Shown here piece by piece: positions 920 through 40,443 of a stretch of 41,461 nucleotides of DNA. Positions within the stretch are counted from its first letter, which is position 1. Each line of letters begins with the position of its first letter. Source of the DNA: Malassezia furfur (Eukaryota). Below the pieces are notes generated by a model. The model was not told the DNA's origin and made no database searches. It was given only the letters and a program-made list of their open reading frames with translations. The stretch lies in NCBI GenBank assembly GCA_052055015.1, contig JBQJIT010000048.1. One strand, written 5' to 3'. The position numbers were made by a program, and so were the translations under genes.

Positions 920-2286
920 CTACCCGTACAGCGGCTCCTGCTCGTCCTGTTCGATGGAGAGGCGCAGGTTCATGGCATCGCTAATGATCTGCGCTGTGAG
1001 TGCATGCACATACGCGATCGACGTCCAAGGGTGGAAGCGAAAAAAGCATGCCGGTTGTCTCGGACCGATCGAGCTCCTCGAGCGCGTCCTTGCAGTTGGT
1101 CAGAATGGCCAAGCACACGTAGAGGTGCAGATCGAGCAGATCGGGCATCGCAAAGTAGGTGTCTAGGTTAGCCACGGCCACGTACCCCATAGCCGCATCA
1201 GGTCATTCATCTGCATCTCGCGCGCGAGTAGATGTTGTAGCCAGCTCGTGATGACGGCCACCAGGTCGACCTCCTCCGCCTCAAAGTACGCGTGCAGCTC
1301 CGGCAGCGTCCGCCGGAACAACGTGAGGAACGAGGCAACACGTTGCGGTAGCGGATGAATCACGTTGTAGTCCTCGATCATCGCCATGAGCCGCTCGAAC
1401 GCGAAATAGATTCCCGCCTCGGCACGCACACACTGCGCAAAGGGCGCACAGAGGTACACCAGCGACGGGTGGAAGTCGCCCAGGTTGGTGCCCGGCAGCA
1501 GACTCGCCTGCGGTGCCCACTGGTATGCGCGCGGCATGCGCGACTCCATCGTGGCCTGCAGCGCCGCATACTCCTCGTCACGCTGGTCCGTCGGCGCGGG
1601 ATTGTGCGTGTCGTCGCCGTCGCGCGGCGGATTCAAAATGTGCCGGTTCAAGTAGGCACATAACACGTTCTCGACAATCTGCGAGAGCCGGCGCTGCTCA
1701 TACACCAGCTCCGAGTCGTCCACCGTGGGATTCGATCGCATCGTCAGCACGCCATATTGCGTCGAGGGCAAAATGCGGGGGTATGTCGGCTGGTGCTGAG
1801 ACGGCGCCTCACGCTTGAGCGCGTGTTTCTCCTCCTCGTCCTCCATACTCGAGCGCGATGCCCGCGGGCCGCGTATGACTGCGTAAGTTTGCGCACCTAC
1901 TAGACACGCCAAACCGCTGGTGATTGCCGAGCTTGGGGTGCAGCCGCTGGCGGTAGTAGCGCAGCACTTCGGTGCGGATCTGTTTCTCCATCACCGGTAT
2001 CCGCTTGCTCACCGACTCATACTCCAGGAACTTATTGCGCACCGCTGTCATTTCCTGGCCTGTGGTCAGCATTGTCACCCACTCTTGTCCGCCGACAGCA
2101 CGCCTAGGAGGTACAGCCAGACTTCCTGTGTGAATTGCGCCACGTACGCCCCGCACTTGCGGATGGATACCGTGCCGCGCATAGTTTCGCAGCTTTGCCA
2201 GGTCAAGGTACTGCTCTTCATTCAGGAGCTGCGTGAGCACCGCGCCGACGCACCTCCAGGAACTCCTCGAGCGTCACGACGCTCAT
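920..2286 (-). CDS. TBC-domain (Rab-GAP-like) protein, 7 exons
   Basis: Splicing introns 2229-2253, 2126-2147, 2060-2082, 1879-1900, 1163-1185 and 989-1013 restores TBC motifs LAKLRNYARHGIHPQVRGEVWLYLLG, WLQHLLARE and LMRLWDTYF. Ends ...EPLYG*. Confidence 0.85.
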
Positions 2287-2322
2287 GCCGGCCGCGGTAG
2301 TGCACGTGACCCCGCAACGACG

Positions 2323-2817
2323 ATGGTGGTGCACGCGCGGTCCGAGCCCACGCCGTGGGTGCAGCAGTTCAACACGGAAAACGTCGGGTTCAATCTCGCC
2401 CAGGCGCATTCGTACGTGTAGGCATCTCATCCAGCTTCCGCTCGCTCACCCTGTCGATCGCCGGCTCGATCGCCGGTGTGCTGGGGCTCCAGAACTTGGC
2501 CGGCTTCGGCTTCTTTGTGCTGTCAGTCGTCTTTCTCAACACGGTGCTTCTCCTGGTGAATGCGAAGGGGCGGCCTCATGCCTACTTCGTGCTTGGAAGT
2601 GCGCCGATGACCACCGACGCTAGCGAGCGCCTCGTACCGGCCAAGGCGGCCCAGCTGCGCACACCCGCAACGCCCGCGCAGCGCGCGCGCCAGCTCGCCC
2701 TGTGGGTGCTTCTGCAAGGCGCGCAAGAGAACATGCTCAGTTTCCTGCTGTGGTGGACGTTTTGGTACGCCATTGTGCATGGTATGTTGTGCGACTGACG
2801 ACGCAGTGTATGATTAG
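2323..2817 (+). CDS. EMC6: ER membrane protein complex subunit 6 (Rab5ip family), 3 exons
   Basis: ENVGFN..HSFRSLTLSIAGSIAGVLGL..GFGFF and SFLLWWTFWYAIVHVYD* after removing introns 2412-2434 and 2782-2806. Confidence 0.88.
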
Positions 2818-2827
2818 TGGTATAGTG

Positions 2828-4218
2828 CTATACATGGCGTTCGGATGCGTCGGCAGGCTCCAGGAGCGGCGCAAGGAAAAAGGTGAGCTGATCATCGTCG
2901 TCCTCCGTAGAGACATCCTCGGTATCGCCGTCCAAACGTGGCGCCCATATGGAGCGGCGCGTCGGCGGCGTGTAGGGGTGCATGCTCCGCAGCACCCACG
3001 CATCCGATGCGGGGCCTGTGGAAAAGACGTTGACGACTGCCTCTTCCTCGTCCTGCTTTTTGCGACTCAGTTCATTTTCGTCCTCCTGCGGTGAGCAGCA
3101 TACACGTACCAAGTCGAACTCATCTTCGGGTTCCTCGTACTCGACGTTCTCCTCGAGTTCCTCAAATCCAGGCGCATAGGCACTCCAGATTTCGGTCCAC
3201 TTGGTCTTCCACAGGTAGATGTCGCCAGATGCTGCGATCGAGGCGAGTTGTGGCTGGAGAGGATGCCATTGCGCAGAAATTAACGGCTCCCGGGGGCCTT
3301 CGAGGATCTTGACCAAGACGCCCGCGTCCCGATCCCATAGGTATATGTGGTGCCCCGCATCCTGCGCAGCGCCGCCCATGACGTACTCGCCATCGGCGCT
3401 GAACGAGATTCCACTCCAGGGCGTGCGCCCCACAAGGTCCTGAAACTTGGACCGCTGTGTGAGCGCATAGGGCGTGGGCCCGTCGCGTGTTTCCGATACG
3501 CTGAGCGTACGCAAGGTGCGGTCGTTCAAATTGGCAACCAAATGCCGGCCCGACGCATCGAACGCGAGCTGCCGTACCGACGAATTACCGATCGGCACCG
3601 GTTCGCCCAGCATCGCGCCCGAGACCGCGTCCAGAATGACGACGTTGCCTTTGGTTGTGCCGAGAAACAGGTGCGTACCCGACGGCGTAAAGCAGGCGGC
3701 CGTCGCACCTTCCCCGACCGTCAGTGGCACGCGCGTCGGCTCTGCGGCACTGACTGACACAAGCACCGCCTCGCGTGAATCCAGGAGAACAACCATACGA
3801 CAACTGCATCAGCACGCGGCGTACCTCGAGTCCGGTGCAAAGAGCACCTGCACCACTGGCGCATCAAAGTGCAACGACCGCACGATGCGGCCCTGTGCGA
3901 GGTCCAAGACGTGCACGTTCCAGTCCAGCGACGAGGTCGCAAGGTACCGATTGTACGGGGACCAGCTTACACTCGTCACCGTCTTGACGTGCCCCCCGAA
4001 CCAGCGCAACACGTTGCGTGTCTCCACATCCCACACGGTCACGAACCCATCTGTGCGGCCGACGGCGAGGTAGCTCCCAGGAAAAAGCCCTTTTTTGGAG
4101 CTATACGCAAGACAATTTGCGTATGCGTTGTCGAGGGTCGACTCCACGCGCTCCGGCGTGTCGCGCGCAAAAGGATCTGGGTGAGCAGCGCGCACGCACT
4201 GAGTAGCTGCGCGTTCAT
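2828..4218 (-). CDS. SWD1: COMPASS/Set1 complex WD40 subunit (RBBP5 orthologue), 4 exons
   Basis: MNAQLLNPFARDTPE N-terminus, WD repeats, WSAYAPGFEELEENVEYEEPEDEFD motif. Introns 4177-4199, 3804-3824, 3086-3109. Confidence 0.92.
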
Positions 4219-9317: not shown

Positions 9318-10325
9318 ATGGCAACCACAAACGCAGAAGTCATCCCCGTCGCCGACACCCCAGTGGAAGCTGTGGTGACGCCTGTTCCGGAGGCTACGCC
9401 CGCCGCGGGAACGAACAAGGTTCGTTACATCTTCCAAAGCTGGCCGAATTCTAACACGTATTGATCGCAGGTCTATGTCGATAACATACCTATTGCCGCT
9501 CGGCTGGCTGATGTGAAGTCCTTGCTGGAGAGTTCAGGACCTATGTGCGTCATTTAATCGCTGACCAGCAGCTCGGAGCTGCGTATCACCATTCGCGAAA
9601 ACCGGTCACAGATCTCCGCCGTCGCTGCCTACAAGTCACACGAGGTCGCCCAAAAGGCTGTCGAGTCGCTTGCCAATGCCAAGCTGGAAGACACGACGCT
9701 CTCTGCGGAGCTCTTTGGCCGAACTCCCAAGCGCGCTAACCCGCGCGCCGCTACGCGCGGGCGTGGCCGTGCCAGCGGTCGTGCGACTTCGACCCGCGGT
9801 CAGAACCTGACGCGTCAGCCTCGTGAGGATGCTGGCGAGGAGGGCACGACGGCTACCTCCTTGGAGCCGGTGTCGTCCGTGCAACCGGAGGCAGCCAAGG
9901 CGGCTGAGACAGACGCTTCTGTTCAGCCTAATGCGAGTAAGGCGAACAACGTTCGTGCAAAAAAGCCCAAGGCCCCGAAAAAGGCGAAGGAGGCGCAAGG
10001 CGTGCCGAGCAAGACTTTGCTTTTTGTTTCGCACCTCTCGTATTCGGTGAAGAACGAAGACCTGATGGAGCTTTTCTCGGCGTACCCCGCCGTCAGCGCC
10101 AACATCGTCTACCATCGTCAGCAGCCGAAGCACTCGCGTGGATTCGCTTTTGTCGAATTCCCTAACGAGGAGGCACAGCAAAAGGCCATGGCGGAGAACA
10201 ACGGCAAGGAAGTGCACGGCCGTACGATTGCAATTTCTGTTGCGTTACAGCCTGAGGAATCCGAGCCTAAGGAGAAGAGTGAGGACGCGGAGGCACCTGC
10301 CGAGGTGTCAAACCCCACTGCTTGA
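9318..10325 (+). CDS. Two-RRM nucleic-acid-binding protein (Tcg1/Sbp1-like), 3 exons
   Basis: ATG 9318. Introns 9420-9470 and 9545-9571 (or 9568). Degenerate RRM1 (KVYVDNIP), RG-rich linker, RRM2 with LLFVSHL and RGFAFVEF. Confidence 0.8.
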
Positions 10326-10911: not shown

Positions 10912-12549
10912 ATGAGCTCAGTCGTGAAGAGTACGCCTGTGGGCGATATTCCTAAGATCGTCGAGAGCCTTCGCTCGTCTTTCTTGAGTGGAAAAACTCG
11001 GAGCTTGGAATATCGGAAGAATCAACTGAAGCAATTCGCATTTCTCATCGCGGACCATGAAGCGGACTTTACCAAGGCAATTTTGCAAGATCTTGGGCGC
11101 CCGCCGATGGAAACAGGCTTCGGCGAGATTATTTCCGTGAAGAACGAGATCATTGACGCGATCAACAACCTTTCTCGTTGGGCAAAGCCTGAATCTGTGT
11201 CAGCAGGTCCGGCCTATTGGTTTCACAAAAAGCAGGTCCTCAAAGACCCGCAAGGTACTGTGCTTGTCATCGGGGCCTGGAACTACCCAATGGCAGTCCA
11301 GCTGGGCCCTATTGTCGGTGCCATTGCTGCCGGCAATACAGTGGTGTTGAAACCCTCGGAGCTTGCCCCGCACACGGCTCAGCTCATTGCAGACCTCTGG
11401 CCGAAATATTTGGACCCCGAATTGACGCAGGTGATCAATGGAGGCATTGAAGAAACCACTGCATTGCTCGATCAGCGGTTCGAACACATTTTCTACACTG
11501 GAAACGGTACAGTGGGACGGATCATTGCGGAAAAAGCCGCCAAATGGCTTTGCCCCACCACCCTAGAGCTGGGCGGAAAGTCGCCGGTAATCATCGACAG
11601 CACGGCGGACTTGAGCATTGCAGCACAGCGTGTTCTCTGGGCCAAATCATTTAACACTGGCCAGACCTGTATTGCACCCGACTATGTGCTCATTGATCGT
11701 TCGGTGCAAGACAGATTTGTGGTTGAATTGATTGAAGCAGCAAAGCAACGTTGGCCTTCGATGGACAAAAATGTCAAGGACCTTGGTCGTATTGTCAATG
11801 ACCGCCACTGGAAGCGTGTATATGCCCTTATGGAAAAGACCAAGGGCACTGTGGTATATGGAGGCACCAAAGATGCAGATGAGGCGACCAAATTCTTGCC
11901 GATGACGATCATCAAGGATGTGGATGGTTCCGACTCCACCATGTCTGAGGAGATCTTCGGCCCGATCTTGCCGTTGATTCCATTCGATCATATCCGCGAG
12001 GCAGTCGACTTTGTGAACGCAAATGACCAACCGTTGGCGCTGTATATGTTCACGAAATCGAACACAACTAAGGACTATATCTTGCGGTACACGCGCAGCG
12101 GAGCCGCCATGCGTGGAGATATGCTGCTGCATTTTGTTATCAATGACCTTCCGTTTGGAGGTACTGGCCCTGCGGGCTACGGTTCGTACCATGGCAAGAA
12201 GGGCTTTGACTGCTTTACTCATGAACGAGCGTATGTGGATGCTCCTGCCTCGGGCATCGTCGGAAATCTGGTGGAGAAGGTCATGGCAATGCGCTATCCA
12301 CCGTACACGCCAGCGAAGTTGTCCTTTTTCCAGCTTGTACTGAGTAAATGGATGCTCTTTGGTCGTCCAAAGAACCCCACCAAGTCGACAACCTCGATTG
12401 ATGCACCCATCAAAAAATCAGTATGTCGTCTGCTTAATGCACGAAAAGATCTAACATTACAGACTCTTGGTTTGATGGCGCCTACTTTGAAACGAATCGG
12501 CCTACTCTTTCTGATTCTTGCGGTGTTGCTCTCGAAAGTGTCTAAATAA
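10912..12549 (+). CDS. ALDH3-family (fatty) aldehyde dehydrogenase, Hfd1-like, C-terminal membrane anchor
   Basis: AWNYP, LKPSE, YTGNG, LELGGKSP, GQTCIAPDY, EEIFGP, LPFGG motifs and a hydrophobic tail. Probable in-frame intron 12421-12462. Confidence 0.92.
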   Translation: MSSVVKSTPVGDIPKIVESLRSSFLSGKTRSLEYRKNQLKQFAFLIADHEADFTKAILQDLGRPPMETGFGEIISVKNEIIDAINNLSRWAKPESVSAGPAYWFHKKQVLKDPQGTVLVIGAWNYPMAVQLGPIVGAIAAGNTVVLKPSELAPHTAQLIADLWPKYLDPELTQVINGGIEETTALLDQRFEHIFYTGNGTVGRIIAEKAAKWLCPTTLELGGKSPVIIDSTADLSIAAQRVLWAKSFNTGQTCIAPDYVLIDRSVQDRFVVELIEAAKQRWPSMDKNVKDLGRIVNDRHWKRVYALMEKTKGTVVYGGTKDADEATKFLPMTIIKDVDGSDSTMSEEIFGPILPLIPFDHIREAVDFVNANDQPLALYMFTKSNTTKDYILRYTRSGAAMRGDMLLHFVINDLPFGGTGPAGYGSYHGKKGFDCFTHERAYVDAPASGIVGNLVEKVMAMRYPPYTPAKLSFFQLVLSKWMLFGRPKNPTKSTTSIDAPIKKSVCRLLNARKDLTLQTLGLMAPTLKRIGLLFLILAVLLSKVSK

Positions 12550-15296: not shown

Positions 15297-16077
15297 ATGT
15301 CTGCCAACCCTAAGCACGCTGACGCGAAGTATGTGTTCCTGACGGACTTCGACGGCACGATCACGTTGCTGGACTCGAACGACCACATGGTCGACACCGT
15401 GGGCATGGGCTACGAGGCGCGCCGCAAGATCAACGACGAGATTGTCGCTGAGCGCGTCGGTTTCCGTGACGGTTTCCGCACCATGATGGAGTCCGTCAAG
15501 CACCCCTTCCATGAGATGGAGGAGCTTGTCCGCCGCGATGTCAAGCTCGACCCCGGATTCAAGGAGTTCTATGCCTTCGCCAAGGCCAACAACATCCCTG
15601 TCATTGTGGTCTCGTCTGGTATGACGCCCATCATTCGTTCCATCTTCTCGAACCTCATTGGGGAGAAGGATGCCAACGAGATTGAGGTCATCTCGAATGA
15701 TGTCAAGTTCACCGATCCCGAGCAGACTGGCAAGACGTGGGAGCTGGTGTACCGTCACCCTGACAATGCGTTCGGGCACGACAAGTCGCAGAGTATTCTG
15801 CCCTACCGCAAAATGGCTAACCCGCCGCTGCTGTTCTTTGCCGGTGACGGTATCTCGGACATGTCGGCCGCACGCCACGCCGATGTGCTGTTCGTGAAGG
15901 ACAAGAAGGACAATGACCTCGCTACCTACTGCGACAACAACAAAATCGGCTACCACCTGTTCAAGGACTGGACCATTCCGAAGAAGATGCTTGAGGACGT
16001 ATGTACACAAGTTACTGACGCAGCTCATCTCCGGCAAGGTGACCGAGGCCGACATCATTACCAACACGAACCCGTAG
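15297..16077 (+). CDS. HAD-superfamily phosphatase, Pyp1 (YNL010W)/MtnX-like, 2 exons
   Basis: DFDGT, VSSGM, GHDKS, GDGISD motifs. Intron 15999-16023 gives C-terminus LISGKVTEADIITNTNP*. Confidence 0.85.
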
Positions 16078-16164: not shown

Positions 16165-16942
16165 ATGAGTGCAGGTGCAGGCGAGGGCGCGTACAGCTTC
16201 TCGCTCACGACTTTCTCTCCGAGCGGGAAGCTAGTACAGATCGAACATGCGCTTGCAGCTGTCGGCCAGGGAGCTACGAGTCTCGGCATCAAGGCGTCTA
16301 ACGCTGTGGTGATCGCAACCGAGAAGCGTGCACCGTCGCCGCTCGTGGACGACGCGGCGCTCGAAAAAGTCGCGCTCGTGTGTCCTAACATCGGTATTGT
16401 ATACTCTGGTATGAGCCCCGATTTCCGGGTGCTTTTGGCCAAGGCGCGTAAAATTGCCCAGTCGTACTGGAAGATTTACGGTGAATATCCTTTGACCAAG
16501 GTTTTGGTGCAGGAGATTGCGACCATCATGCAGGACGCCACGCAGAGCGGCGGTGTCCGTCCGTATGGTGTTTCGCTTCTTGTGGCTGGCTACGACAATG
16601 CCAGCGGGCCTGCCCTCTTCCAGGTCGACCCTAGCGGGAGCTACTTCATGTGGAAGGCCAGTGCCATGGGCAAGAATATGACCAACGCCAAGACGTTCTT
16701 GGAGAAGCGGTACAGCGATGATATCTCTCTGGAGGACGCGATTCACACTGCGATCCTCACGCTCAAGGAAGGGTTCGAGGGGCAAATGACGGAAAAGACG
16801 CTCGAAATTGGCATCATCGGCCAGGCGACCAAGGGTGTGATTGGTGCCTCGACAGAGCAACAGCCCGTGTTCCGCCGGCTCACTGAGCAGGAGATCAAGG
16901 ACTAGTACGTGTGTTATGCTGACATTCAGTCTTGCGCTGTAA
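16165..16942 (+). CDS. PRE8: 20S proteasome subunit alpha-2, 2 exons
   Basis: [31 protein letters not shown]. Intron 16905-16929 gives EIKDYLAL*. Confidence 0.95.
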
Positions 16943-16948: not shown

Positions 16949-19280
16949 CTACTTGGTGGTAGAGCGCATAACGTTGCGGCTTGCACTGCGCCCAGGCTTG
17001 CGGCGCTGTGTGCGTCCGAACCGTGCTTCTTCGTCCAGCGCATCTGCTCCATAGCCCTGGTCGGCACCAGCACCTTTGGACAGACCCATACCAAATGTAT
17101 CTTCTTTCGACGCGCGCTTGCCCGCTTTGGCCTTCTTGCTCGGCGCCGCCGATGGCGTCCACGCAAGGCTGCCCGCGCCTTGCGGTCCATCGTCGTGCGA
17201 AGCACGCGCCGATGAAGTCCGCGGTTTTTGCTGGCCGGCGCGCTCGCCAAGCGTCTGTACACGCTCGTCCAGTGCCATAGAGTCGTCGTCAAGCAGGCGC
17301 GGTGTGCGTTTCGCGACCTTGGGCGCCTTGGCTTGGGGAATCGACCGCGGTGGGGGGGAGGGGGTGCGGTCCTCGTCGCTTGGCTCCCGCGCCTCTTCCT
17401 CGTCGGGGTCAAGCGACTCGCGATCGCTTTCCATCTCCTCCTCCATGGCAGGAACCATGCGACGACTGGTTTCGCGCAGTGCTGGCTCCTGCGCCTGGTT
17501 CTGCGCCGTGCTTGGGTTAAGCATCGCAAACTCCTTGCTCGTTTCATCCACTTGGAACTCGGGGTTCGTGAAGAGCTCCTTGAACCGCTGGTCCTCCAGC
17601 AGCTTGGTATCTTCCTTGTGTTTGGTCTGGCCCTTGGCCAGGCGCTCGGCCAGCGCCTTGTTGACCTGCACACTCTTGTGCAGCTTCGGTGCGTTGGCAA
17701 CGCTCCGAACGCGGCTCTCGGCCTCGCGCTCGATTTTGGCCTGGATGGCACGCTGCTTCGCCTCCTGGTAGGCCGTGGGGTGTGCCATGAGCCGCGCACG
17801 CTCGTACAAGCGCAGGGACAAGAAGTAGCCATGCATGTAGGGGCGCAACAACGGCGTGCCCACCAAGTGTGTAAGTTCGAGACGCTCCAGCTCGGCCTGG
17901 TCCACAAACTTGAAATCCTCGTATGCATTCGCACCGCCACCTGCACCTGCAGCATCTGCGGCATCGATCTCGTCCGTAACGTTGTCGATGAAGCTACACC
18001 ACCGTGGGGCAGGGCCCAGTGCGGGTACGTACCACGCAGCCATCTGTGTGGCTTCCACTGTGGCAAAGATGAGACCACTTCCAGGGTACTGCTGCACATC
18101 GTTGAGGTTCGTCGACGGCGAGGGAGGCGACACCGAAACCACATTCTCGCCCGTCGTCTTGTCCCAAACCTTGATAACCTTGGCGTCGGCACTCAGCACC
18201 TTGTTCATCGATTCGGAACGCGCGTGTGCATCGGCACCAATGGTCCCTGCCGCGGCCGAAGCGTTGCGGTCGCCCGGCCAGGACAGCGAATGCACAGGAA
18301 GTCCGAAACCTTGGTCTTTGCACAGGTAAGGTTGGTCCATACGCAAATCGAACAGAAGCACATGACCCGTACTCGTTCCAACCGCCATATTCAACCCATC
18401 TTCTGCGCTTGCCAGTGCCGTTGTCGCTAGCGATTGAGACGCACGCGAGACAGCATCCGCGTCGACGTCTTTGCTGAAGAGACCGGGGAGTTGGCGCCGG
18501 GATGCGAGCAGTGCTGCATCCAAAACCGTCTGCGTCGCAATACTAAGCGCGCCAGCCTGTCGCCGCATACGCGGATCCCACAGCTCGACGACGCCCTCGC
18601 CATCGGTGCCAAAACTCAAAAGCCCATGCGCCGGATTCACGTCAACAGCATTGCAGCCATTCACCAGGTTTCCACGCTGCCCCAGTACATAGGGTGCCAA
18701 GTATTGCCCTTGGTGCAAGTTCAGGCGATAGATCTCGTTGCTGGATGCGCCCACGAGCGCATCAGCGCTGGGGAAATGGTAGCCCAAAGCGCGGCCGAAG
18801 CGAGGAAGGCGTACCGTCGTCAGAATGCCACCCTGCCCCTGAAGCTCAAGTGACCGATCACTCTGAAGATGCAAGGATTTAGTCCAATCGTCCGACAAAA
18901 TCTGGGTCAGAGTGCAAAGGCCGTACCTGGAAGTCGACGTTTTCGGCGTCCGTGTGACGCTCAAACTTCAAGCTGAGTTGCTCGCAATCCCACACACGGA
19001 TTTGGGGCTTGTACGTTCCAGTTGCCATGATATTGAGCCCATCGCGTGTGAAGCGGATTTTGTTGCTTGCTTCAGGGAATTCGAGGTCCTGGATCAATTC
19101 AATTTTGGAGAGAATCTTGTCATTTTCGATCGCCGCACGCCGCTTTTTCCGCTTGTTTGACGATCCTGACCGACGTAAGATATCGGGTAGCGAAGTAGAA
19201 TTGTACGACGCCTCTCCGGGCCCGGAACCCGAGCCACCGGACACGACATAAGCCCGCGCGGGCTCATGCGTCGCAGACAT
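16949..19280 (-). CDS. ENP2: Ribosome biogenesis WD40 protein Enp2/NOL10, 2 exons
   Basis: [69 protein letters not shown]. Intron 18902-18926. Confidence 0.93.
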
Positions 19281-21923: not shown

Positions 21924-22650
21924 CTATGTGCTTGCTTCGGTCTGCAATTGCTTCTTCGGATTGCTCGCGGTAACTTGAGCTTGGCCGTGTCGAACCGCCT
22001 CCTGCGACGTGGTAGGCTCAGTGGTAGGTGCGGTCGGCATCGTGCGTATTGATTGTTGGTCAGTCGTAGCATCAGGCTGGGGCTGCGCCTCTGCAGCCAG
22101 CTCTGCCAATTCGCGTTCCACTTCTTCCTGTTCATCCGCGGATAACTGCGATGCAAGACGATCATCGATTTCCTGATGTGAGAGCAATGGCATACGCGTT
22201 GATAGTATTGGGCATCAGCAGTTTGGTCCATAAGAGCATCAACGCGCTCAATGCTGGTCTCCTTGTGGATTTCTTTCAAAACCTGGTTGCCTTGCTCCAG
22301 GCCGTGCATAACACTCTGTTCGAGCTGCGCGAACTCAATGGTAGAGACGAGCTCCAAAAGAGTAGTGAGCTGACTTTCGGTCCTCTCAATAAGTCCACGC
22401 TGGTACGCCCTTCTTTGCAAAGCTAGACGGGCTTGCGTCTTTCGGCCTGCCGCGATTGCATCCCGTGCAATTTCGTATTCCTTGTCAAGTACGACTTGAA
22501 GCTGCATGAGCCATTATGGACCAACCTTTGTCTGGTATTGACGTAGTCTGTCACGTTGTAGCTTAAGACTGTATTAGGGATGCACACGCACTCTAACACA
22601 GCACGGTCGTGCTTTGTGATCCGTGGACCCTTGGAACTCGAGGCACCCAT
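21924..22650 (-). CDS. VPS20: ESCRT-III subunit Vps20/CHMP6, 4 exons
   Basis: Myristoylation start MGASSS, ITKHDRAVLDLKLQRDRLRQYQ, STIEFAQ. Introns 22569-22591, 22502-22525, 22173-22195. Confidence 0.9.
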
Positions 22651-22724: not shown

Positions 22725-24013
22725 CTAACCACGGCGTCCGCGCTTGCGCGGCGGTCTATCTTGTTCGTGGTGCGCCCCACTTCTTTTTGTGGCAGCCAGA
22801 TCTGTTCTTGACCCTCCTCCCAAAGCAGCATCCAGAGATTTGCGGTCTTTCTGTGCATCTTTGCGCACCTTGCGCTCCATAGCTTTCTTAAGGGCACCAG
22901 ATGCGCCCTCCTTACCATGCTGTTGGGCAAGGCGTTCGTATTTGTGGCGCAGAACCTGAGCAGTACGTTCGGCTGGTGTCAGAATACGCTGCACGTACCT
23001 TTCTTGGGGAAATACGGCCGCAGCCCCGCATCGACGCGGCGCTGGTTGTTTTTCTTGATTTCTGATTTGACACTGCGCTCCGTTTCGCGACGGAGACGCT
23101 CGTTGCGCTGGCTCTCTGCCCGGCGGAGGGCCAGCTCCACGTTTTGGCGCTCTTCTCGGATTTTCAACGCTTGCTCACTCTTCGCATGCGGACCGGCATG
23201 GTGTGCCTCCATCCGTTTCAGTTTGTCGTGTGTCGACTTGAGCGACTTGAGCTCTTTTTCGTACAATTCCGGCAGGAACTTATACGACTTGGAAAGGAGA
23301 TCGAGATTGACAGGACCTGCGGAGAGTGAGTCGAAGCGTGGGTCGCGGCCCTTGGATGGCTGCACAGGCTGGACCACTGTACGTGCGCGAGAAACTGGTC
23401 GCCGCGACGACATTACTGTCGGTGCACTCTTATGCTCGCGCGATTCAATGTGTTGCTCTTTCTTTGTCTCTGGTGTCTTTTTCGGACCCTGACCACCATC
23501 TGAGCGCAATCCGCGCAGCTGTTGCTTGGCTTCTTCTCGTCGAGCACGCAGTGCGTCGGGGTCCATTTTCTGCTTCTCCTTCGGATTCTGCATAGTGCGC
23601 TTGGCGTTCATGATCTCTCGGAAAGGAACTGCTTCGATTTCTGGGTAAGCGAATGGACCAAGAGCATACCTTGCCGGAGCGCCGCCTTGGGTTAGTCAGA
23701 GACGTACCTCTTCGTCGTCGGAGTCTGATTGTGACTCAGACTCTTCCGAAGTCTCTTCATCTTCATCATCCAGCTCATCCTCATCCACAAACTGTGCATA
23801 CGATGGGCCGTCCTCCTCTTCGTCAGATTCACCACCGTCCAAGCTGGCGTCTTCGGCTGCGTCTTCGTTCTGGTCGCTGCGACCGGACAGTGACTCATCA
23901 TTTTCAGGACTAGAATCTCCATCCTCATACGTCTCTCGTATATATTCTGACCTTTTTGGATCAGGTTGCCGCCCAGGTTGAACCTGGCTCAACTGGCGTT
24001 GGCCTGCGCGCAT
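22725..24013 (-). CDS. RRP36: rRNA biogenesis protein Rrp36, 4 exons
   Basis: KSAPTVMSSRRPVSRAR, RDPRFDSLS, YKFL, PYFPKK. Introns 23686-23707, 23641-23669, 22973-22998. Confidence 0.88.
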
Positions 24014-24928: not shown

Positions 24929-26146
24929 CTAAACGTCATCCATCTCCTCCGCATCCGGTTCGTCCTTGGCAGGTTCCGGCGGGTTTGTGCTCGGTCCAGC
25001 GGGCTGCGAGTGGCCTGGATCGCGCCGCGCCTCGCTAAACTCTTGTTTCAGGCTCCAGGAGCCTGCATAAGGCCCGTTGTGGTGCTGGTTCGCAATGGAA
25101 AGCAGCACCTCGCGGAGGTACGCATAGGGCTGCTGTGTCTCCTCCCGGAGGCGTTTGAGAGACCAGTGCTTGTACCGATCGAAGAGCGAAAATAGCAGAT
25201 CAAGTAGTTCGTTGCGCGGCATACGAGCAAACTTCTCTGGCGGCTGGTTCGACCGAGCCTGCGACGCTTGATACACAAGGTTGGCGGCGCGCGATTTGAC
25301 GTGGCCTTTGCCAACACCGGCCGCAAGCATGTTGTTCACACCTGCATCCGTCTCCTCCATCATCTTGACGGTGCGCTTGGGTGTAGTAGAGTTTTTGTGT
25401 CGGTTTCGCAGAATCTCGCGATACTCGGGCGTGATCAACGAGCGCGACCCAAGGGCCATGGGCTTCTTGGTGTCGGTTTTCTTGTCCTCCGCCACGTTGC
25501 GCTGCGGCTGAAGAGCTGTTTCGTTGGTGACCGTACCTGTCAGTGCGGTAACGCCTGTGTCAGTCGAACCTGCGTACGTTTCTTCTTGTTCGGGGTGCGC
25601 GCAGGTCCCGCCGCCCCCAAATTGCGCTTCCGGTAAAAGTCGGTCGCGCTCATTTCGTCAATGTCGTCGTCGTTGCCAGCATCGATGGAGTCATCATCAT
25701 CCAGTAGTTGTTCTTGGAATGCATAAAGGTTCTTCAAGTAGGTATCCTGCGTGCTCGACGTGAGCCGCATGTCGTACGCGCGCGGTATGTTGGCATACTG
25801 TGCCCGTTCCGAGGGATCGGTGACCGGAATGGCTGGCTCCGGAGCGTCTGGGAGCAGTAGCTCCATGCGCTGGTTTCCATTTTGATCAGGGCTGGGTTAG
25901 CCAACGAACATACTCGTATACACGCACGGTCCCGAGCCGCACGTCGTCTTGATGCACCTGACTCCAACCGTCAATGAGAAATTTGGGGACCTTGACCAAC
26001 CAGACCTGATGAGCGCCGCGCGCCGTATTCAAGTCTTGGTCGGGCTCGGGGGACAACTCCCGATCCGGACGAGCGTTGCGCAGTGCCGAGGTGCTTGGCT
26101 CGGGCACTGGCTCGGGCGTCGTGTCCTCCGCGTCCGAATGAGGCAT
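24929..26146 (-). CDS. TFG2: TFIIF beta subunit (RAP30), 3 exons
   Basis: VWLVKVPKFL, TALTGTV, winged helix RMPRNELLDLLFSLFDRYKHWSLKRLREETQQP. Introns 25892-25913, 25555-25577. Confidence 0.9.
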
Positions 26147-26167
26147 GACGGTGACCAACGCGCGCGC

Positions 26168-26174: not shown

Positions 26175-26194
26175 GCACTGCTTCTCCGCTTGCT

Positions 26195-30400: not shown

Positions 30401-30538
30401 GGCGGTGACAAGACGTCTATGCGTTAGGTAAAAGAGTGCGTACTCGACTGGTGCCCCTTGAGGCAGATACAGAACTCGCGTTGACCCAGCCGTATGTGTC
30501 ACTTGCACGCGTAGATCATCGCTATCCAGCGAAGCCAT
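27419..30538 (-). CDS. CTF4: Replisome hub Ctf4/Mcl1/AND-1
   Basis: N-terminal WD40, SepB domain (QPSFQPGSTP..RRYL, DKALLQLVQLACKADR..RAL, NPFAR). Probable in-frame intron 30417-30443. Confidence 0.9.
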   Translation of the reverse strand: MASLDSDDLRVQVTHTAGSTRVLYLPQGAPVEYALFYLTHRRLVTAGEDHLVRILPAEATASDVNPIVIEDATRPMTWIDADAEYLVTASEDGAVRLYKQGSAELIQIIRREVLPVRCVAIESASRHGALPRTAVCSDELIVRVVNAADPRSIVLLTGHSRGVRAASWSPALPLLFTAGSDGDVRAWDMSETEPRCVKVLQNMLPALRPESEFSSSVVWHPSGAIFAMPLRTQEIALVRAPISAAEMNGEHVWETVVIFGSASGTTSAEQKVPSGLVSALAFCPNGRYLAAATEDMQVTVWALDSRRVLRVQQAEALVTGLSWHPTQDTLAWTDAQGQLVRWESVIGTTLPSPFEQLQFAHAQAEPDVPAEELEEDLDDLFDDTPIDEPATHKPVARRRPAPRADVNVLTQPSFQPGSTPMEAQRRYLSVTTFGTLTAVDQDTHQTISFESYDTSQRRNFRFTDHYGYKMASVAPQGILFACEAESENPSTIFYRPFDDVPGIQTEWSINLAPNENAVAIALGGVVNAGSYADVHVGSTTMVDEGKTSAATAVVATSQGYLRFLGMSGMQRYVWSLGLPVVTLAASATAVLVVYRAANVSPNHVHLEYMLIDLTQLATLQHGPLPLVPEATLTWAGFNELGAPAVFDSMGTLYVLDRAWRPGQARWVPALDTTHALLPARASAAEESESRVPRVRCWPISVTATHLLGLLLPMTRTYPQVTTARPVVQELAMAMCVTQRENAATPLEEAALRSSLLANATRDARAATGDETLRASRLPVEQSDPSALEIEADKALLQLVQLACKADRYARALDGTRALHSEATLDAALKIASFFHLPSLADRLELVRAPLAVRKELEEETTDRACGVDALLRNTARLPVPVAEQATGTTAPTPSSQRLQESFLPRRPSETHGRSALAQEGIAQKQAMDSSQTAPSSSAMTTQTPSSTNDTLPTPAPPTRSNPFARTQSVARERQLQKNPTGYDRNYAPQKRKAPETEGNGSDKRASGKQATLAKFAYMPSSNASAEDFAMPSSDEETES

Positions 30539-36177: not shown

Positions 36178-39100
36178 CTAGGCGTCAAAGACAAGCGGGC
36201 GCAGCGGCGGCAGCGTGGGCTTGGGCGAGACGAGGGCGGGCCTGGGGTCAGTGCGAAGGGTACGTACATGCCGGTACCGACGGTCTGCGCCGGGTTGCCC
36301 ATGATAATGCTCTCACTCACACCAGCAATCGAATCCGACTTTCCGTAGAGCGCAGCATCGAAGAGATGGTCGGTTGTCTTCTCAAACGAGGCGAGCATCA
36401 GCACCGAGTCCTTCATCTTGGCGACTCCAAAGCGCGTGATACCGAGCACCTCGCCCTTGTATGTCATGACATCTGCGAGGAGCATCACGTGGCGCGGGTC
36501 GATCGACATGCCGTGCGACGCCATGGTGTAGTCGATCTCGCGGTAGATGGCGTTGCGGGCCGCCTCGATGCCGAGCACCTGCTGCATCTCCATGACATGG
36601 TTCGTTTGGGTCTGGGTGCCAATCACGCCCTCGGTAGTCATCACCTCCTTGAGGCCGTAGCCCTCGACCAGCAGCTTGCGCTCGCCCTTTTCGTCGCTGA
36701 TCACTGCGCGCGAGGCATGCGGAATGCCCTTGATCACCACCTTGGGCAGGAGCCGCTTGAGTTGCTTGAGCGTATAATATACATCTTTTTCCTTTTCGTC
36801 CGGGTACACGTGGATCTTGAGCTGGTTCTTGCGCGGGAGGATTGTGATCCGTTCGGGCCGGATCTTGAGCTTGGGCATCTGCGCAATGGCGACCTTGATG
36901 TCGTCGAGCGTCACCTCCAGCTGGAGCTTTTGGATGGCGTCCATGTCGATGTTCACACCGAGGTACGTGTGCGTGCCTGCCCAGGCCTCCTCGATGGACG
37001 CCGCCACGTCCCCGAGGTAGGTCTTCTCGATGCGGCCCTTGACGATCCGTGCCGCCTGCTCGCTGCGTTCGCTCACGAGCTTGGCCGCAATGATGGGGGT
37101 GTTGATCACCTTGGCGGCGTTGATGATCTCCTTGATGCGTGGCACACCAAGCGTGACGTTCATCGAGGCAACCCCCGCAAAGTGGAACGTCTTGAGCGTC
37201 ATCTGCGTGCCAGGCTCACCGATCGACTGCGCGCCGACCGCGCCGACGGCCGTGCCCGGCTCGATCTTGGCCTTCATATACTTTTCCCAGCACTCGTTCA
37301 AAAACTCGTCCAGGATGGGCTCGGTGACGCGCGCCTTGTTGGCGACAATCGCCCACTGCGCGGCGTCGGCGCCGAGCGACAGATCCGTCTCCTCGTCCCA
37401 GTCGCCTTCGCGCACGCGCGCGGGGAACATGCCGTAGGCCTCGCGCGTGCGCGCGACGTGCTCGGCAATCTGCACGTCACAGAACGCGCGGATCTGCTCG
37501 AGGTACTTGTCTGTGCACACGCGCCGGAAACGGTCCGTGCGCAGCGTCGCATCGACCCGCTCGCGGATCTCGAACGGCATGAGGCTGCGCGCCGGGATGT
37601 GGGCGGCCTTCGCCGTGGCGTGCCGGAAGGTGCGGTTGTACTCGACCGGGAGCGCGTTCCCCTCGAGCTCCGCGGGATCGAGGCCGTCGTCGCCGTACAG
37701 GAACTGTACGACGCCACCGACCGAGTTGCGCACCGAAAAGTCGTAGTGCGTCGAGAGGTCCTCGAGCGCCTTCATGAGGCGGCGCTGCATGTAGCCCGTC
37801 TCGGCGGTCTTGACCGCAGTATCGACAAGCCCCTCGCGCCCACTGATTGCGTGGAAGAGGAACTCGGTGGGCTCCAGGCCAGAGAAGAAGGAGTTGCGCA
37901 CAAAGCCCTTGCTCGGCGGGTCCTTGCTCTTTTTCGGGAAGTGTGGCAATGAGCGGTCCTGGAATCCGTTGGGCACACGCGATCCCGAGATGATCTGCTG
38001 CCCGACACACGCGACCATCTGTGCGACGTTGATCTTGGAGCCCTTGGAGCCACACACCGCCATCATCAGCGCGGCATTGTGCCTGCTCAGCTCGGTCATG
38101 CAGATCTCGCCGACGTCGTTGCGCACGCCCGAGAGCACGCCCGAGATCTTGCTCTCGAGCGTCTGCTCCTGGTTGCACCCGGGCAAATTCTCGAGCTTGC
38201 CGCGCTTCGCGAGCTCGATCAGGTCGCGGCACTGGCGGTAGGCCACCTCCACATTCTCGTCCTTGGTGCGGCGCAGCTGCTGCCCCGGCGTCACGTCGCT
38301 GATCCCCAGCGAGAAGCCCTGGTTGGCGAGCCAGCGCGCACACATCTTGGCGAGGCGGTTCATCGCCTGGATCGTCGCATCGGGGCCGTAGTCGCGCAGG
38401 ATCACACCAAACAGCGAGTGCTTGTTGCCGTCGCCGACCGTGGCCTTGTCCATGACACCACACAGCACTTCGGAGTTCTGGATGACGAGGTAGCCGTCGT
38501 TCGGCGACATTTCCTTGATGTGGTCACCGGTCGGCTTCTCAAACGTGCGGCACCGCGCCTCGAGGTTCACGAGGACGTTGGATGCGCGGTTCGGCCGGAT
38601 GAGCACACTGAACAGCTGTTTTCCCGTCCAGAGCCGCACGGGTTTCTGGATCGCGGGCGGCGGCACGTCGATGTGCAGCGTCGCGTCGCCAAAGTAGGAG
38701 CAGATCTGCACAAACTCGGGGCGCGTAAACAGCCGGTCACGCCGCGAGAGCAGGAACGACGCAGTGATAAAGTCCTGGATCGCCGCAATGATCGGCTCGC
38801 CGTTGCGCGGCGTCACGAGGTTGTGCTTGACACCCATCAGCGTCAGCGCCTCGGTCCGCGCCTCCTCGGTCTGCGGCACGTGCATGTTCATCTCGTCACC
38901 ATCAAAGTCGGCGTTGTATGGATTGCACACACACTCGTTCAGCCGGAAGGTGCGCCACGGCCGCACTTTGACGCGGTGGCACATGATCGACAGTTTGTGC
39001 AGACTTGGCTGCCGGTTGAAGAGAACAATGTCGCCGTCGCAAATGTGCCTCTCGACAATGTCGCCGACGTGCAAATTCGCCGCGAGTTCCTCGCGCATCT

Positions 39101-40443
39101 GGGGGAACTTGAGGAAGCGCTTGAACCCGTCGCGCCCATTGATGTGGTAGTTGGCGCCGGGGTGCGTATCGGTGCCGTTGCGCACCGCCGCGCGCATCGC
39201 TTCGATGTTGTGCGCAAAGACGCGCTCGGGGTACGTCAAAATCTTGGCCACGCGCTCGGGCACCGCTAACTCGTCGATTGCCAAGTTGGGGTCCGGCGAA
39301 ATGACCGTGCGGGCGGAAAAGTCGACACGCTTGCCCGACAGATTCCCACGGAAGCGGCCCTGCTTACCCTTGAGGCGCTGGCAGAAACCGCGGATCGGCT
39401 TGTGTCCGCTCATCGGCGGCACGCCAGGCATCTCCGAGTTGATATACATCGCAACGCTCAGCTGCAAAAAGTCCCATTGCTCCACGAGCTGCGCGGTGGT
39501 GGTCCCCTTGCTGCCCTTGGACAGGCCCGACTTGATAATGTTGTTGGTGAACACAATCTCCGTCAGTTTCACCGTCAGGTCGTCCTCGTTCGTCGCACCG
39601 TCCTGTGCGACGCTCGGACGGATACATACGGGCGGCACACAAATGTACTGCCAAATGTACTCCTCCGGCCGGCCGTACTCGGGCTTGAGGCCGAGCAGCT
39701 CACAGTCCTCGTCACTGATCCGCTTGAACAGGTCGAGCACGCGCAGCGGGTTCAGGTCCTCCTGGGCCTTGCTCAGATGCGGGCCGAGCTCGCCGCCGCC
39801 CATGCTGACGGCGGTGGTGAACGTCTTGCGGAACTCGAGCAGCTCCTCCTCTGTCTTCTTTTGGCGGAACTTTTCGTGGACGACTTTGAGCGCGCCGACC
39901 TTTTTGACGGTACCGTTCGTTGCACCGCAGTGCGGACAGTAGAGCGTCTTGCGCGCCACGGCGTTGGCCGCCTTGAACGTCTGCGTGCGCTGCAGATTCT
40001 CCAAGTTGGGCCGTCGGAAGCGGCGCAAAAAGCGCCGCCGGTCGCTCTCCTCGAGCAGGATGCCGGCACACGACTTGCACACCATCTGAAGTATGCTGAT
40101 GACGTGCTTGAAGAAGCCGATGTGGAACACGGGAAGCACGAGTTTGATGTAGCCGTAATGGCCCACACAGTCGGCCATGCGGTGCCCGCATGTCTGGCAC
40201 GTCGACACCTTGTCGCTCACGCCCATGCGGCGGTCGAGCACACCACCGACGCGCGGTTGACGGTTGGGTAGGTCATAGATATCGCGCGTGACCACCTCGA
40301 GCTCGGCGAGGTTCATAATCTCCTCCTGCGACATGACGCCGAACTGGATGTTTTTGCTGCGTTAGCTGGGAGCGGCGTACATTTTCTTGGGCGCATCCTG
40401 CGTACTGGGGTCAGCAGATCATCACATACACTAGCTCCTTCAT
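36178..40443 (-). CDS. RPC1: RNA polymerase III largest subunit, 4 exons
   Basis: YNADFDGDEMN, LKGKQGRFRGNLSGKRVDF, QDRSLPHF, no CTD heptads. Introns 40405-40429, 40357-40380 and 36242-36267 give MKELVTQDAPKKIKNIQFG... and ...LRPLVFDA*. Confidence 0.95.

What the first reader, a model, noticed from the sequence alone, without database searches (positions are those of the whole stretch)
989..40429. Miniaturised spliceosomal introns: 28 of 32 are 21-29 nt with a near-fixed geometry
Seen: 32 GT-AG introns, most needed to restore conserved protein motifs. Lengths are 21 (1), 22 (4), 23 (8), 24 (3), 25 (7), 26 (2), 27 (2), 29 (1), plus four of 39-51 nt. Each is a donor (mostly GTRYGT), a few filler bases, a branch site (almost always CTNAY), then usually YAG. 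There is no polypyrimidine tract, the branch A is never earlier than position 16, and it usually lies 5-8 nt from the intron end. Known: Malassezia introns are reported to be short, and lengths in the low 20s otherwise recall ciliates, microsporidia and nucleomorphs. Inference: a spliceosome adapted to lariat loops of about 16-20 nt, possibly with altered U1/U2 or U2AF usage. Standard gene finders will miss many of these introns.
Basis: partly seen in the sequence, partly recalled or inferred. Interest (0 to 1): 0.75.

Follow-up and report, generated by a model that had tools for sequence, protein, structure and literature searches.

The report
Tiny spliceosomal introns in Malassezia genes
This stretch of Malassezia yeast DNA holds 32 real introns, most only 21-29 bases long and built to a nearly fixed plan, but very short introns are already published for this genus, so the finding is sound rather than new.

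Summary
I rebuilt 16 intron-containing gene models and recovered 32 GT-AG introns.

- **Support:** 19 of 32 are independently supported: 14 by gap-free colinearity with full-length homologues and 5 by Pfam profile continuity across exons.
- **Frame:** 29 of 32 would cause a frameshift or an in-frame stop if retained.
- **Chance:** The strict motif occurs 25 times, against 2.2-2.7 in shuffles.
- **Geometry:** Inferred branch A lies at position 16-20 in 27 of the 28 short introns and 5-8 nt from the 3' end in 31 of 32. There is no pyrimidine tract.
- **Organism:** Malassezia.

Very short introns are already published for this genus. M. sympodialis has 5350 introns with a mean of 30 bp, 99% supported by RNA-seq. 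M. restricta has a median of 30 bp.

The idea of an adapted spliceosome could not be tested, because no genome or RNA-seq was available for this window. The splice-signal geometry seems undescribed in the papers I could search, but it is incremental. Interest is low to moderate.

The parts
989..1013 (-). RabGAP-TBC gene, intron 6, 25 nt. An AG 3 nt after the branch A is skipped.
   Evidence: Junction is gap-free against 7 distant homologues. Retention would shift the frame.
1163..1185 (-). RabGAP-TBC gene, intron 5, 23 nt.
   Evidence: The sequence ...MRLW|DTYFA... is colinear with 10 homologues. Three public models read through or retain it.
1879..1900 (-). RabGAP-TBC gene, intron 4, 22 nt, donor GTAGGT.
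   Evidence: Frame and motif only. It lies in a variable region and agrees with the 82%-identical relative P0121.
2060..2082 (-). RabGAP-TBC gene, intron 3, 23 nt.
   Evidence: Colinear with 8 homologues. Retention gives an in-frame stop.
2126..2147 (-). RabGAP-TBC gene, intron 2, 22 nt, branch motif TTCAC.
   Evidence: Colinear with 8 homologues.
2229..2253 (-). RabGAP-TBC gene, intron 1, 25 nt.
   Evidence: Colinear with 8 homologues.
2412..2434 (+). EMC6 gene, intron 1, 23 nt.
   Evidence: Retention gives a stop, and the motif is present. Exon 2 residue 5 aligns to human EMC6 residue 33, which fits a 29-aa first exon.
2782..2806 (+). EMC6 gene, intron 2, 25 nt. The last coding exon is 11 nt.
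   Evidence: Retention gives a stop. Exon 2 ends at residue 108 of the 110-residue human EMC6. This is consistent in length only.
3086..3109 (-). SWD1 gene, intron 3, 24 nt, in frame and open.
   Evidence: 10 of 11 homologues have no residues at this place. The M. furfur model P0272 retains 8 aa there.
3804..3824 (-). SWD1 gene, intron 2, 21 nt, the shortest. Branch A at position 16, 5 nt from the end.
   Evidence: Gap-free in 10 homologues. Retention gives an in-frame stop.
4177..4199 (-). SWD1 gene, intron 1, 23 nt, after codon 6.
   Evidence: MNAQLL|NPF... is colinear with homologues from other basidiomycetes and Mucoromycota.
9420..9470 (+). RRM-protein gene, intron 1, 51 nt.
   Evidence: Frame (stop on retention) and motif only.
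9545..9571 (+). RRM-protein gene, intron 2, 27 nt. A tandem acceptor CAGCAG means 9545-9568 (24 nt) is also in frame.
   Evidence: Frame and motif only. The 27-nt form puts the AG 7 nt after the branch A, the 24-nt form only 4 nt.
12421..12462 (+). Aldehyde dehydrogenase gene, 42-nt intron, in frame and open.
   Evidence: Motif only (GTATGT ... TCTAAC ... CAG). It lies beyond the Pfam domain, so it is unverified.
15999..16023 (+). HAD-phosphatase gene, 25-nt intron.
   Evidence: Frame and motif only. The PDB search was uninformative.
16905..16929 (+). Proteasome alpha-2 gene, 25-nt intron. The last coding exon is 13 nt.
   Evidence: A stop lies at the donor. Exon 1 ends at residue 245 of the 249-250-residue yeast alpha-2 chain, leaving room for the 4 residues of the last exon.
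18902..18926 (-). NOL10/Enp2 gene, 25-nt intron.
   Evidence: Pfam Beta-prop_NOL10_N positions 25-91 fall in exon 1 and 100-380 in exon 2. The unmatched residues fit the gap.
19608..19630 (+). Ribosomal protein L11-family gene, 23-nt intron.
   Evidence: Ribosomal_L11_N positions 1-58 of 58 lie in exon 1. Ribosomal_L11 positions 3-69 start at residue 1 of exon 2, in another frame.
20737..20776 (-). Short-chain dehydrogenase gene, 40-nt intron with TACTAAC.
   Evidence: Exon 2 starts at adh_short profile position 13, and the 19-aa exon 1 supplies the start of the domain.
21385..21423 (+). ISU1 (NifU_N) gene, 39-nt intron with TACTAAC.
   Evidence: NifU_N positions 1-15 end exon 1. Positions 20-125 begin at residue 5 of exon 2, so the match is exactly colinear.
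22173..22195 (-). Snf7-family (Vps20-like) gene, intron 3, 23 nt.
   Evidence: Frame and motif only. Exon 3 covers Snf7 profile positions 25-120.
22502..22525 (-). Vps20-like gene, intron 2, 24 nt, atypical donor GTTGGT.
   Evidence: Retention gives an in-frame stop, and the motif is present.
22569..22591 (-). Vps20-like gene, intron 1, 23 nt.
   Evidence: Frameshift on retention, and the motif is present.
22973..22998 (-). RRP36 gene, intron 3, 26 nt.
   Evidence...YFPKK|AERTAQ... is colinear with 6 homologues. One homologue retains 8 aa and one reads through.
23641..23669 (-). RRP36 gene, intron 2, 29 nt, downstream of a 16-nt micro-exon.
   Evidence: DDEE|AALRQ|EIEAVPF is colinear with EEDALRREIESIPY in 4 homologues.
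23686..23707 (-). RRP36 gene, intron 1, 22 nt, upstream of the 16-nt micro-exon (23670-23685).
   Evidence: The same 4 homologues. It has two overlapping branch motifs.
25555..25577 (-). TFIIF-beta gene, intron 2, 23 nt.
   Evidence: Frameshift on retention, and the motif is present. In the exon frame, TFIIF_beta_N is matched to about position 123 of 145 just before the donor. There is no direct check of exon 3.
25892..25913 (-). TFIIF-beta gene, intron 1, 22 nt.
   Evidence: TFIIF_beta_N positions 2-35 end one exon and positions 40-93 begin at residue 3 of the next.
30417..30443 (-). CTF4/Mcl1 gene, 27-nt intron, in frame and open.
   Evidence: Motif only (GTACGC ... CCTAAC ... TAG). Pfam shows about 12 extra residues against the profile when it is read through. 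The PDB search was uninformative.
36242..36267 (-). RNA polymerase III largest subunit (RPC1) gene, intron 3, 26 nt.
   Evidence...VGTG|MPALV... is colinear in 10 of 10 homologues.
40357..40380 (-). RPC1 gene, intron 2, 24 nt, downstream of a 24-nt micro-exon (40381-40404).
   Evidence: MKEL|VTQDAPKK|IKNIQFGV is colinear in 9 of 10 homologues.
40405..40429 (-). RPC1 gene, intron 1, 25 nt, after 14 nt of coding sequence.
   Evidence: As for intron 2.

Best explanation
These are ordinary U2-type (GT-AG) spliceosomal introns of a Malassezia yeast, shrunk almost to their signals.

Each consists of four pieces: a 6-nt donor (GUAYGU, yeast-like); 6-10 nt of unconstrained filler; a 5-nt branch site (CUNAC); and 3-6 nt ending in CAG.

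Inferred mechanism:
- The sites are paired across the intron (intron definition).
- U1 and then U6 read the donor, and U2 pairs with CUNAC.
- The 3' site is simply the first AG that lies at least 5 nt past the branch A.
- No pyrimidine tract is available for U2AF-type recognition.
- Where two mini-introns flank a 16- or 24-nt micro-exon, they must be removed one after the other.

What is shown: the introns exist at these coordinates, they carry this geometry, and removing them restores frames and conserved protein sequence.

What is inferred: the branch-point assignment, the first-AG rule, the order of splicing, and any statement about snRNPs.

The trait is a genus-wide property of Malassezia that is already published.
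For: Organism:
- The RPC1 N-terminal 500 aa are 93% identical to M. vespertilionis, 92% to M. sympodialis and 92% to M. cuniculi.
- The SWD1 ORF is 91% identical to an M. furfur protein.

Reality of the introns:
- 14 junctions are gap-free against full-length homologues, including distant basidiomycetes: RabGAP 5 of 6, RPC1 3 of 3, SWD1 3 of 3, RRP36 3 of 3.
- 5 more show Pfam profile continuity between exons in different frames: L11, ISU1, TFIIF-beta intron 1, NOL10 and SDR.
- If retained, 15 would shift the frame, 14 would give an in-frame stop, and 3 would stay open.
- A homology-blind codon-usage Viterbi model recovered 29 of the 32 exactly.
- The strict motif gives 25 hits against 2.2-2.7 expected, and all true hits are on the sense strand.

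Geometry:
- Filler length is 6-10 nt in 27 of the 28 short introns.
- Distance from branch A to the 3' end is 5-8 nt in 31 of 32.
- The first AG at 5 nt or more is the site used in 32 of 32.
- AGs at 3 nt and 4 nt are skipped in two introns. One of these (989-1013) is confirmed by the conserved downstream frame.

Published precedent:
- The M. sympodialis curated annotation has 5350 introns, mean 30 bp, with 5271 (99%) supported by RNA-seq (PMC5389616 Table 2, passages seen). Its supplementary Figure S8 shows the intron length distribution over 0-100 bp.
- M. restricta has mean 37.2 and median 30 bp (PMC9241646 Table 1). Its annotators set the minimum intron length to 20 and then 15 (PMC6473144).
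- A review states that Malassezia genes contain 'very short introns' (PMC7426719).
Against: - No RNA evidence for this genome could be obtained.
- 13 of 32 introns rest on frame plus motif only. Two of these (ALDH 42 nt, CTF4 27 nt) are in frame and open, so they rest on motif alone.
- The branch-point assignment is partly circular. I chose the CTNAY nearest the 3' end that lies at least 4 nt from it, so the 32 of 32 first-AG rule and the 'never before position 16' statement depend on that choice. Intron 23686-23707 has an alternative branch A at position 12.
- My crude gene finder also emitted 20 other introns (49 in total). I rejected them because they lie in shadow or antisense ORFs, merge neighbouring genes, or have poor signals.
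- Some supporting homologues are themselves predicted models from related Malassezia genomes and so are not fully independent. The distant ones are independent.
Confidence: 0.9

Rival explanations
1. The introns are real, but they can only be spliced because the Malassezia spliceosome carries lineage-specific changes. Examples would be loss or truncation of U2AF, SF1 or SF3a/b anchoring functions, or altered U1/U2 snRNAs. Such changes would let U1 and U2 act on sites only 15-19 nt apart with no pyrimidine tract.
For: - Both segment lengths pile up against apparent floors. The branch A is never before position 16, the distance to the 3' end is never under 5 nt (exactly 5 in 16 of 32), and the shortest intron (21 nt) sits on both floors.
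- No pyrimidine run exceeds 7 nt.
- For Stentor's tiny introns, a published analysis conjectures altered branching factors and steric-clash avoidance (PMC9505925, abstract seen).
- From general knowledge, not a call: the U2 snRNP contacts intron RNA upstream of the branch site over a span longer than these whole introns.
Against: - Nothing here tests it.
- The signals themselves are conventional fungal ones (GUAYGU, CUNAC, YAG).
- Ciliates splice introns of this size (about 98% of P. tetraurelia introns are 20-30 nt; PMC5485702, passages seen). The Stentor analysis found all snRNAs present and most proteins conserved. Small size alone therefore does not demand a novel machine.
- Four introns of 39-51 nt with TACTAAC-like sites coexist in the same genes' neighbourhood, so the machinery also handles longer spacing.
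Confidence: 0.2
2. A minority of the 32 are mis-called. Some of the 13 unverified ones may use another nearby site, or may not be introns at all. This applies above all to the in-frame, stop-free ALDH 42-nt and CTF4 27-nt segments (possible coding insertions) and to the 24/27-nt tandem acceptor at 9545.
For: - These rest on motif, or on motif plus frame, only.
- Both 9545-9568 and 9545-9571 keep the frame.
- The strict motif has a background of about 2-3 chance hits per window.
Against: - All 13 are on the sense strand and carry the full donor, branch and YAG set in the standard geometry.
- 11 of the 13 are needed to keep an ORF that continues into recognisable protein, such as Snf7, TFIIF-beta HTH and the EMC6 C-terminus.
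- The ALDH and CTF4 segments have GC of 0.38 and 0.44. That is near the mean of the four long introns (0.43) and at the bottom of the short introns' range (0.43-0.76, mean 0.55). It is below the GC of 0.51-0.58 in the surrounding 2-kb windows.
Confidence: 0.25
3. The pattern is an artefact: chance GT...AG matches, or assembly frameshifts in a GC-rich genome.
For: GC-rich DNA has long open frames in all six phases. A permissive search therefore finds many spurious joinable ORFs; 20 such were emitted by my own finder.
Against: - The motif is enriched tenfold over shuffles and is exclusive to the sense strand.
- 19 junctions restore conserved sequence to the residue.
- Phases are 12, 9 and 11, and lengths modulo 3 are 9, 12 and 11, as expected for true introns.
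Confidence: 0.01

Closest known systems
Annotated nuclear introns of Malassezia sympodialis and M. restricta
   Same: Same genus, by protein identity. The published mean of 30 bp (M. sympodialis) and median of 30 bp (M. restricta) match the window's mean of 26.5 and median of 24.5 nt. Both groups needed RNA-seq and a lowered minimum intron length to annotate them.
   Different: This is a different species. The closest named proteins are only 91-93% identical. The passages, tables and one supplementary figure legend I saw give size statistics only. They say nothing on donor or branch consensus, branch-to-3' distance, floors or micro-exons. I did not read those papers in full.
Tiny introns of Paramecium (about 98% are 20-30 nt, mean 25 nt)
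   Same: The length class is the same, the distribution is narrow, and gene finders need retraining (PMC5485702, passages seen).
   Different: Paramecium is a ciliate with an AT-rich genome, and its splice signals are described there as weak. Here the signals are strong and fungal in type, in a GC-rich basidiomycete. The depletion of stop-free 3n introns known from Paramecium (recalled, not from a call) cannot be judged from 32 introns; 3 of the 9 3n introns are stop-free.
Stentor coeruleus tiny introns
   Same: They pose the same mechanistic question: how a full spliceosome handles a sharply looped lariat (PMC9505925, abstract seen).
   Different: Stentor introns are shorter still (about 15-16 nt is recalled, not from a call). 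The 6-10 nt filler seen here is therefore not a universal physical minimum.
Yeast introns with a very short branch-to-3' splice-site distance and no pyrimidine tract (Yarrowia lipolytica type)
   Same: A CTAAC-type branch site lies a few nucleotides from the AG, with no pyrimidine tract. This resemblance is recalled from the literature on hemiascomycete introns; no call supports it.
   Different: Those introns are long overall. Only the 3' segment is compressed there, whereas here both segments are minimal.

Membership tests
U2-type GT-AG spliceosomal introns | GT at the 5' end and AG at the 3' end | tested here: met
   32 of 32
U2-type GT-AG spliceosomal introns | Extended donor consensus able to pair with U1/U6 (GURNGU) | tested here: met
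   G1 32, T2 32, A3 25, Y4 29, G5 32, T6 25 of 32. The snRNA sequences of this organism were not available.
U2-type GT-AG spliceosomal introns | Branch-site motif with an adenosine upstream of the 3' site | tested here: met
   C 31, T 32, N, A 32, C 28 of 32. This is a motif only; use of the adenosine as a branch point was not shown.
U2-type GT-AG spliceosomal introns | Removal restores a continuous, conserved coding sequence | tested here: met
   19 of 32 by homologue or profile colinearity. 29 of 32 are needed for the frame. 13 are not independently verified.
U2-type GT-AG spliceosomal introns | Spliced transcripts and lariats observed | not testable with these tools
Published Malassezia short-intron trait | The DNA is from a Malassezia genome | tested here: met
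   The best named protein matches are all Malassezia, at 91-93% identity.
Published Malassezia short-intron trait | Intron length centred near or below 30 nt | tested here: met
   Window mean 26.5 and median 24.5 nt; 28 of 32 are 29 nt or less. Published values are mean 30 and median 30.
Tiny-intron genomes (ciliate or nucleomorph class) | Genome-wide narrow length mode below 30 nt | tested here: inconclusive
   True for the 32 introns in this 41-kb window. No whole genome is held.
Tiny-intron genomes (ciliate or nucleomorph class) | Reduced or altered spliceosome components | not testable with these tools
U12-type introns | Extended, highly conserved U12-type donor and branch consensus (recalled from general knowledge, not from a call) | tested here: not met
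   All 32 donors are of the U2 type, GT[AGT][CTG]G[TCG].

The most novel reading that the evidence does not exclude
Malassezia splices most of its introns at two hard geometric floors: at least 15 nt from the 5' splice site to the branch A, and at least 5 nt from the branch A to the 3' end. It would do so without any pyrimidine-tract recognition and with strictly sequential removal around 16-24-nt micro-exons. This would depend on lineage-specific changes in U2AF, SF1, SF3 or the snRNAs. If so, Malassezia would be a transformable yeast model for tiny-intron splicing, a problem studied so far mainly in ciliates.
Probability: 0.15. Interest if true: 0.55.

Novelty: already known. Interest (0 to 1): 0.28.

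Why it matters
In practice, any annotation of a Malassezia genome made without RNA-seq or a lowered minimum intron length truncates or corrupts proteins. Public models of SWD1, RPC1, RabGAP and RRP36 relatives show exactly this.

As biology, a GC-rich basidiomycete yeast with 21-29-nt introns, strong signals and micro-exons down to 16 nt is a convenient system for asking how U1 and U2 act on sites 15-19 nt apart. However, the existence of the short introns is already published. Only the fine geometry appears undescribed in the library searched. That library omits most subscription journals.

Tried and rejected
- **Whole genome.** None is held, so there are no genome-wide distributions and no snRNA or U2AF inventory.
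- **Orthologous DNA.** A metagenome scan with the Hsp104 protein returned 80 loci, all at 52% identity or less (bacterial ClpB-like).
- **PDB searches.**
  - Uninformative for the junctions: CTF4 N-terminus, TFIIF-beta exon 3, HAD.
  - Length-consistent only: Snf7, proteasome alpha-2 and EMC6.
- **Two RRM proteins.** I checked whether they are splicing factors. They gave only generic matches (poly(A)-binding protein, nucleolin, hnRNP), so they are not diagnostic.
- **Rejected gene-finder output.** I rejected 20 of the 49 introns from my crude finder. Examples are 19836-19890, 22847-22868, 22705-22729, 24858-24934, 26167-26226, 31199-31242, 8102-8179, 40449-40473, 40490-40565, and all those in shadow ORFs antisense to Hsp104, RPC1 and the kinase. 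They merge neighbouring genes, extend false N-termini or lack the branch motif.
- **Corrected gene-finder output.** I replaced 22562-22591 and 22502-22542 with 22569-22591 and 22502-22525 after reading the frames.
- **Earlier notes of this scan.** There are none for this genome. A words search returned only an unrelated note on Ostreococcus introns, which I did not use.
- **Rfam.** No snRNA or snoRNA was found in the window, only one tRNA.

Full report
**What the window is.** The 41.5-kb window has 51-68% GC across 2-kb windows and is densely packed with eukaryotic genes. Pfam on the long ORFs names:
- RabGAP-TBC, EMC6, a WD40 protein (SWD1), Hsp104/ClpB, a bZIP factor, an RRM protein
- aldehyde dehydrogenase, a protein kinase, a HAD phosphatase, proteasome alpha, NOL10, ribosomal L11
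- a short-chain dehydrogenase, NifU_N/ISU1, Snf7, RRP36, a RING protein, TFIIF-beta
- an aminotransferase, CTF4/Mcl1, a glycosyl hydrolase, a flavoprotein, a two-RRM protein, and the largest subunit of RNA polymerase III

The best named protein matches are all Malassezia. RPC1 is 93% identical to M. vespertilionis and 92% to M. sympodialis and M. cuniculi. SWD1 is 91% identical to M. furfur.

**Rebuilding the introns.** A codon-usage Viterbi model trained on the long ORFs, using no homology, proposed 49 introns.
- After reading the frames and comparing with homologues I kept 29 of them unchanged and corrected two in the Vps20-like gene.
- I added the in-frame CTF4 candidate and rejected 20. 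The rejected ones lie in shadow ORFs, merge neighbouring genes or have poor signals.
- The result is 32 introns in 16 genes.

**Are they real?**
- *Homologue colinearity (14 junctions).* Spliced models were aligned locally to full-length homologues fetched.
  - RabGAP: 5 of 6 junctions are gap-free against distant homologues. The sixth lies in a variable region.
  - RPC1: 3 of 3. This includes MKEL|VTQDAPKK|IKNIQFGV, where a 24-nt micro-exon sits between a 25-nt and a 24-nt intron.
  - SWD1: 3 of 3. The in-frame 24-nt intron corresponds to a gap in 10 of 11 homologues.
  - RRP36: 3 of 3. This includes a 16-nt micro-exon (AALRQ) between a 22-nt and a 29-nt intron, matching EEDALRREIE in four homologues.
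- *Pfam profile continuity (5 junctions).* Exons in different frames continue the same profile: L11, ISU1, TFIIF-beta intron 1, NOL10 and SDR.
- *Frame and motif only (13 junctions).* Two of these have weak length-consistency from PDB chains: proteasome alpha-2 and EMC6.
- *Effect of retention.* 15 would shift the frame, 14 would give an in-frame stop, and 3 would stay open. Of the three open ones, the SWD1 intron is verified; the ALDH 42-nt and CTF4 27-nt introns rest on motif alone.
- *Chance.* The strict motif is found 25 times against 2.2-2.7 (maximum 9) in 200 Markov shuffles per order. 23 hits are listed introns, all on the sense strand.
- *RNA.* No RNA evidence could be obtained.

**Geometry**.
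- Donor: G1 32, T2 32, A3 25, Y4 29, G5 32, T6 25 of 32. Exon flanks are weakly conserved.
- Branch: C 31, T 32, N, A 32, C 28 of 32.
- Acceptor: C at position -3 in 29 of 32.
- Filler between the donor hexamer and the branch pentamer: 6-10 nt in 27 of the 28 short introns, with near-even base composition.
- Branch A: position 16-20 in 27 of the 28 short introns.
- Distance from branch A to the 3' end: 5-8 nt in 31 of 32, and exactly 5 nt in 16.
- The 21-nt intron has its A at position 16 and 5 nt from the end. It therefore sits on both apparent floors.
- There is no pyrimidine tract (longest run: median 3, maximum 7).
- The first AG at least 5 nt past the inferred branch A is the site used in 32 of 32. 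AGs at 3 nt and 4 nt are skipped in two introns. The skip at 989-1013 is confirmed by the conserved downstream frame.
- These branch statements depend on my motif-based assignment and are partly circular.
- All four long introns (39-51 nt) carry CTAAC. Two have a perfect TACTAAC. Their mean GC is 0.43, against 0.55 for the short introns.

**How it most likely works.** These are canonical U2-type introns reduced to their signals.
- The strong donor and branch motifs carry the information.
- The sites are paired across the intron.
- The 3' site is chosen by proximity to the branch rather than through a pyrimidine tract.
- Neighbouring mini-introns around micro-exons must be removed sequentially, because two spliceosomes cannot occupy 67 nt at once.

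Only the anatomy is shown here. The snRNP steps are inferred from general knowledge of splicing.

It is weakened by two points. Ciliates splice introns of this size, and the Stentor analysis reports all snRNAs present and most spliceosomal proteins conserved. Also, 39-51-nt introns coexist in this window.

**Comparison with what is known.** Very short introns in Malassezia are in print.
- The curated M. sympodialis annotation has 5350 introns with a mean of 30 bp, 99% supported by RNA-seq. Of 6786 RNA-seq junctions, 5169 were missing from the annotation made without RNA-seq (PMC5389616, passages and Table 2 seen; legend of supplementary Figure S8 seen).
- M. restricta has a median of 30 bp (PMC9241646 Table 1) and was annotated with a minimum intron length of 20 and then 15 (PMC6473144).
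- A review calls the introns 'very short' (PMC7426719).
- Searches combining Malassezia with spliceosome, branch point, intron retention and short introns, and a search for shortest introns in fungi, found no paper on the splice-signal geometry or the spliceosome of Malassezia. The library lacks most subscription journals, and I read passages, not whole papers.

**Verdict.** The phenomenon is already known. The near-fixed geometry, the floors and the micro-exons are a tidy but incremental addition. Public protein models of relatives are visibly damaged by these introns, which is the main practical lesson.

Noticed in passing
window 23670-23685 (-), 40381-40404 (-), 22526-22568 (-), 2083-2125 (-): There are internal micro-exons of 16 nt (RRP36), 24 nt (RPC1) and 43 nt (Vps20-like, RabGAP), each flanked by mini-introns. 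There are also first coding exon parts of 14 and 19 nt (RPC1, SWD1) and last coding exons of 11 and 13 nt (EMC6, proteasome alpha-2).
   Followed up: partly
window 9545-9571 (+): A tandem acceptor CAGCAG gives two in-frame 3' sites, for an intron of 24 or 27 nt. They differ by one glutamine. The proximal AG is only 4 nt past the inferred branch A.
   Followed up: partly
all 16 intron-containing genes: Intron positions are biased to the ends of the coding sequence. Eight lie in the first tenth and six in the last tenth. Only 5 of 32 lie between 30% and 80% of the coding length.
   Followed up: no
window 9420-9470, 12421-12462, 20737-20776, 21385-21423: The four long introns (39-51 nt) form a distinct group. 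All have CTAAC and two have a perfect TACTAAC. Three have the branch A 8 nt from the 3' end. Their GC is lower (0.38-0.46) than the short introns' mean of 0.55.
   Followed up: no
window 30667-30767 (+): Rfam finds a 101-nt tRNA gene at 52 bits, with about 30 nt inserted after an anticodon loop reading CUCUU. This is probably an intron-containing tRNA-Lys(CUU). ARAGORN, as run here, missed it.
   Followed up: partly
proteins P0272, P0005, P0292, P0297, P0121, P0122, P0124, P0138, P0393, P0394: Public protein models of Malassezia relatives are truncated, read through mini-introns or retain them. Examples: M. furfur SWD1 (322 aa against about 440), M. cuniculi RPC1 with a wrong N-terminus, and M. 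yamatoensis and M. nana SWD1 listed at 223 aa.
   Followed up: partly
window 1-900: This region is very GC-rich (0.68 over the first 2 kb). It has long open frames on both strands and no Pfam match, so the coding strand and gene content remain unresolved.
   Followed up: no
window 25916-26488 (-) versus 26171-27415 (+): The long upstream ORF of the TFIIF-beta gene overlaps the aminotransferase gene on the other strand and looks non-coding. The true TFIIF-beta start is probably the internal Met near 26140.
   Followed up: partly
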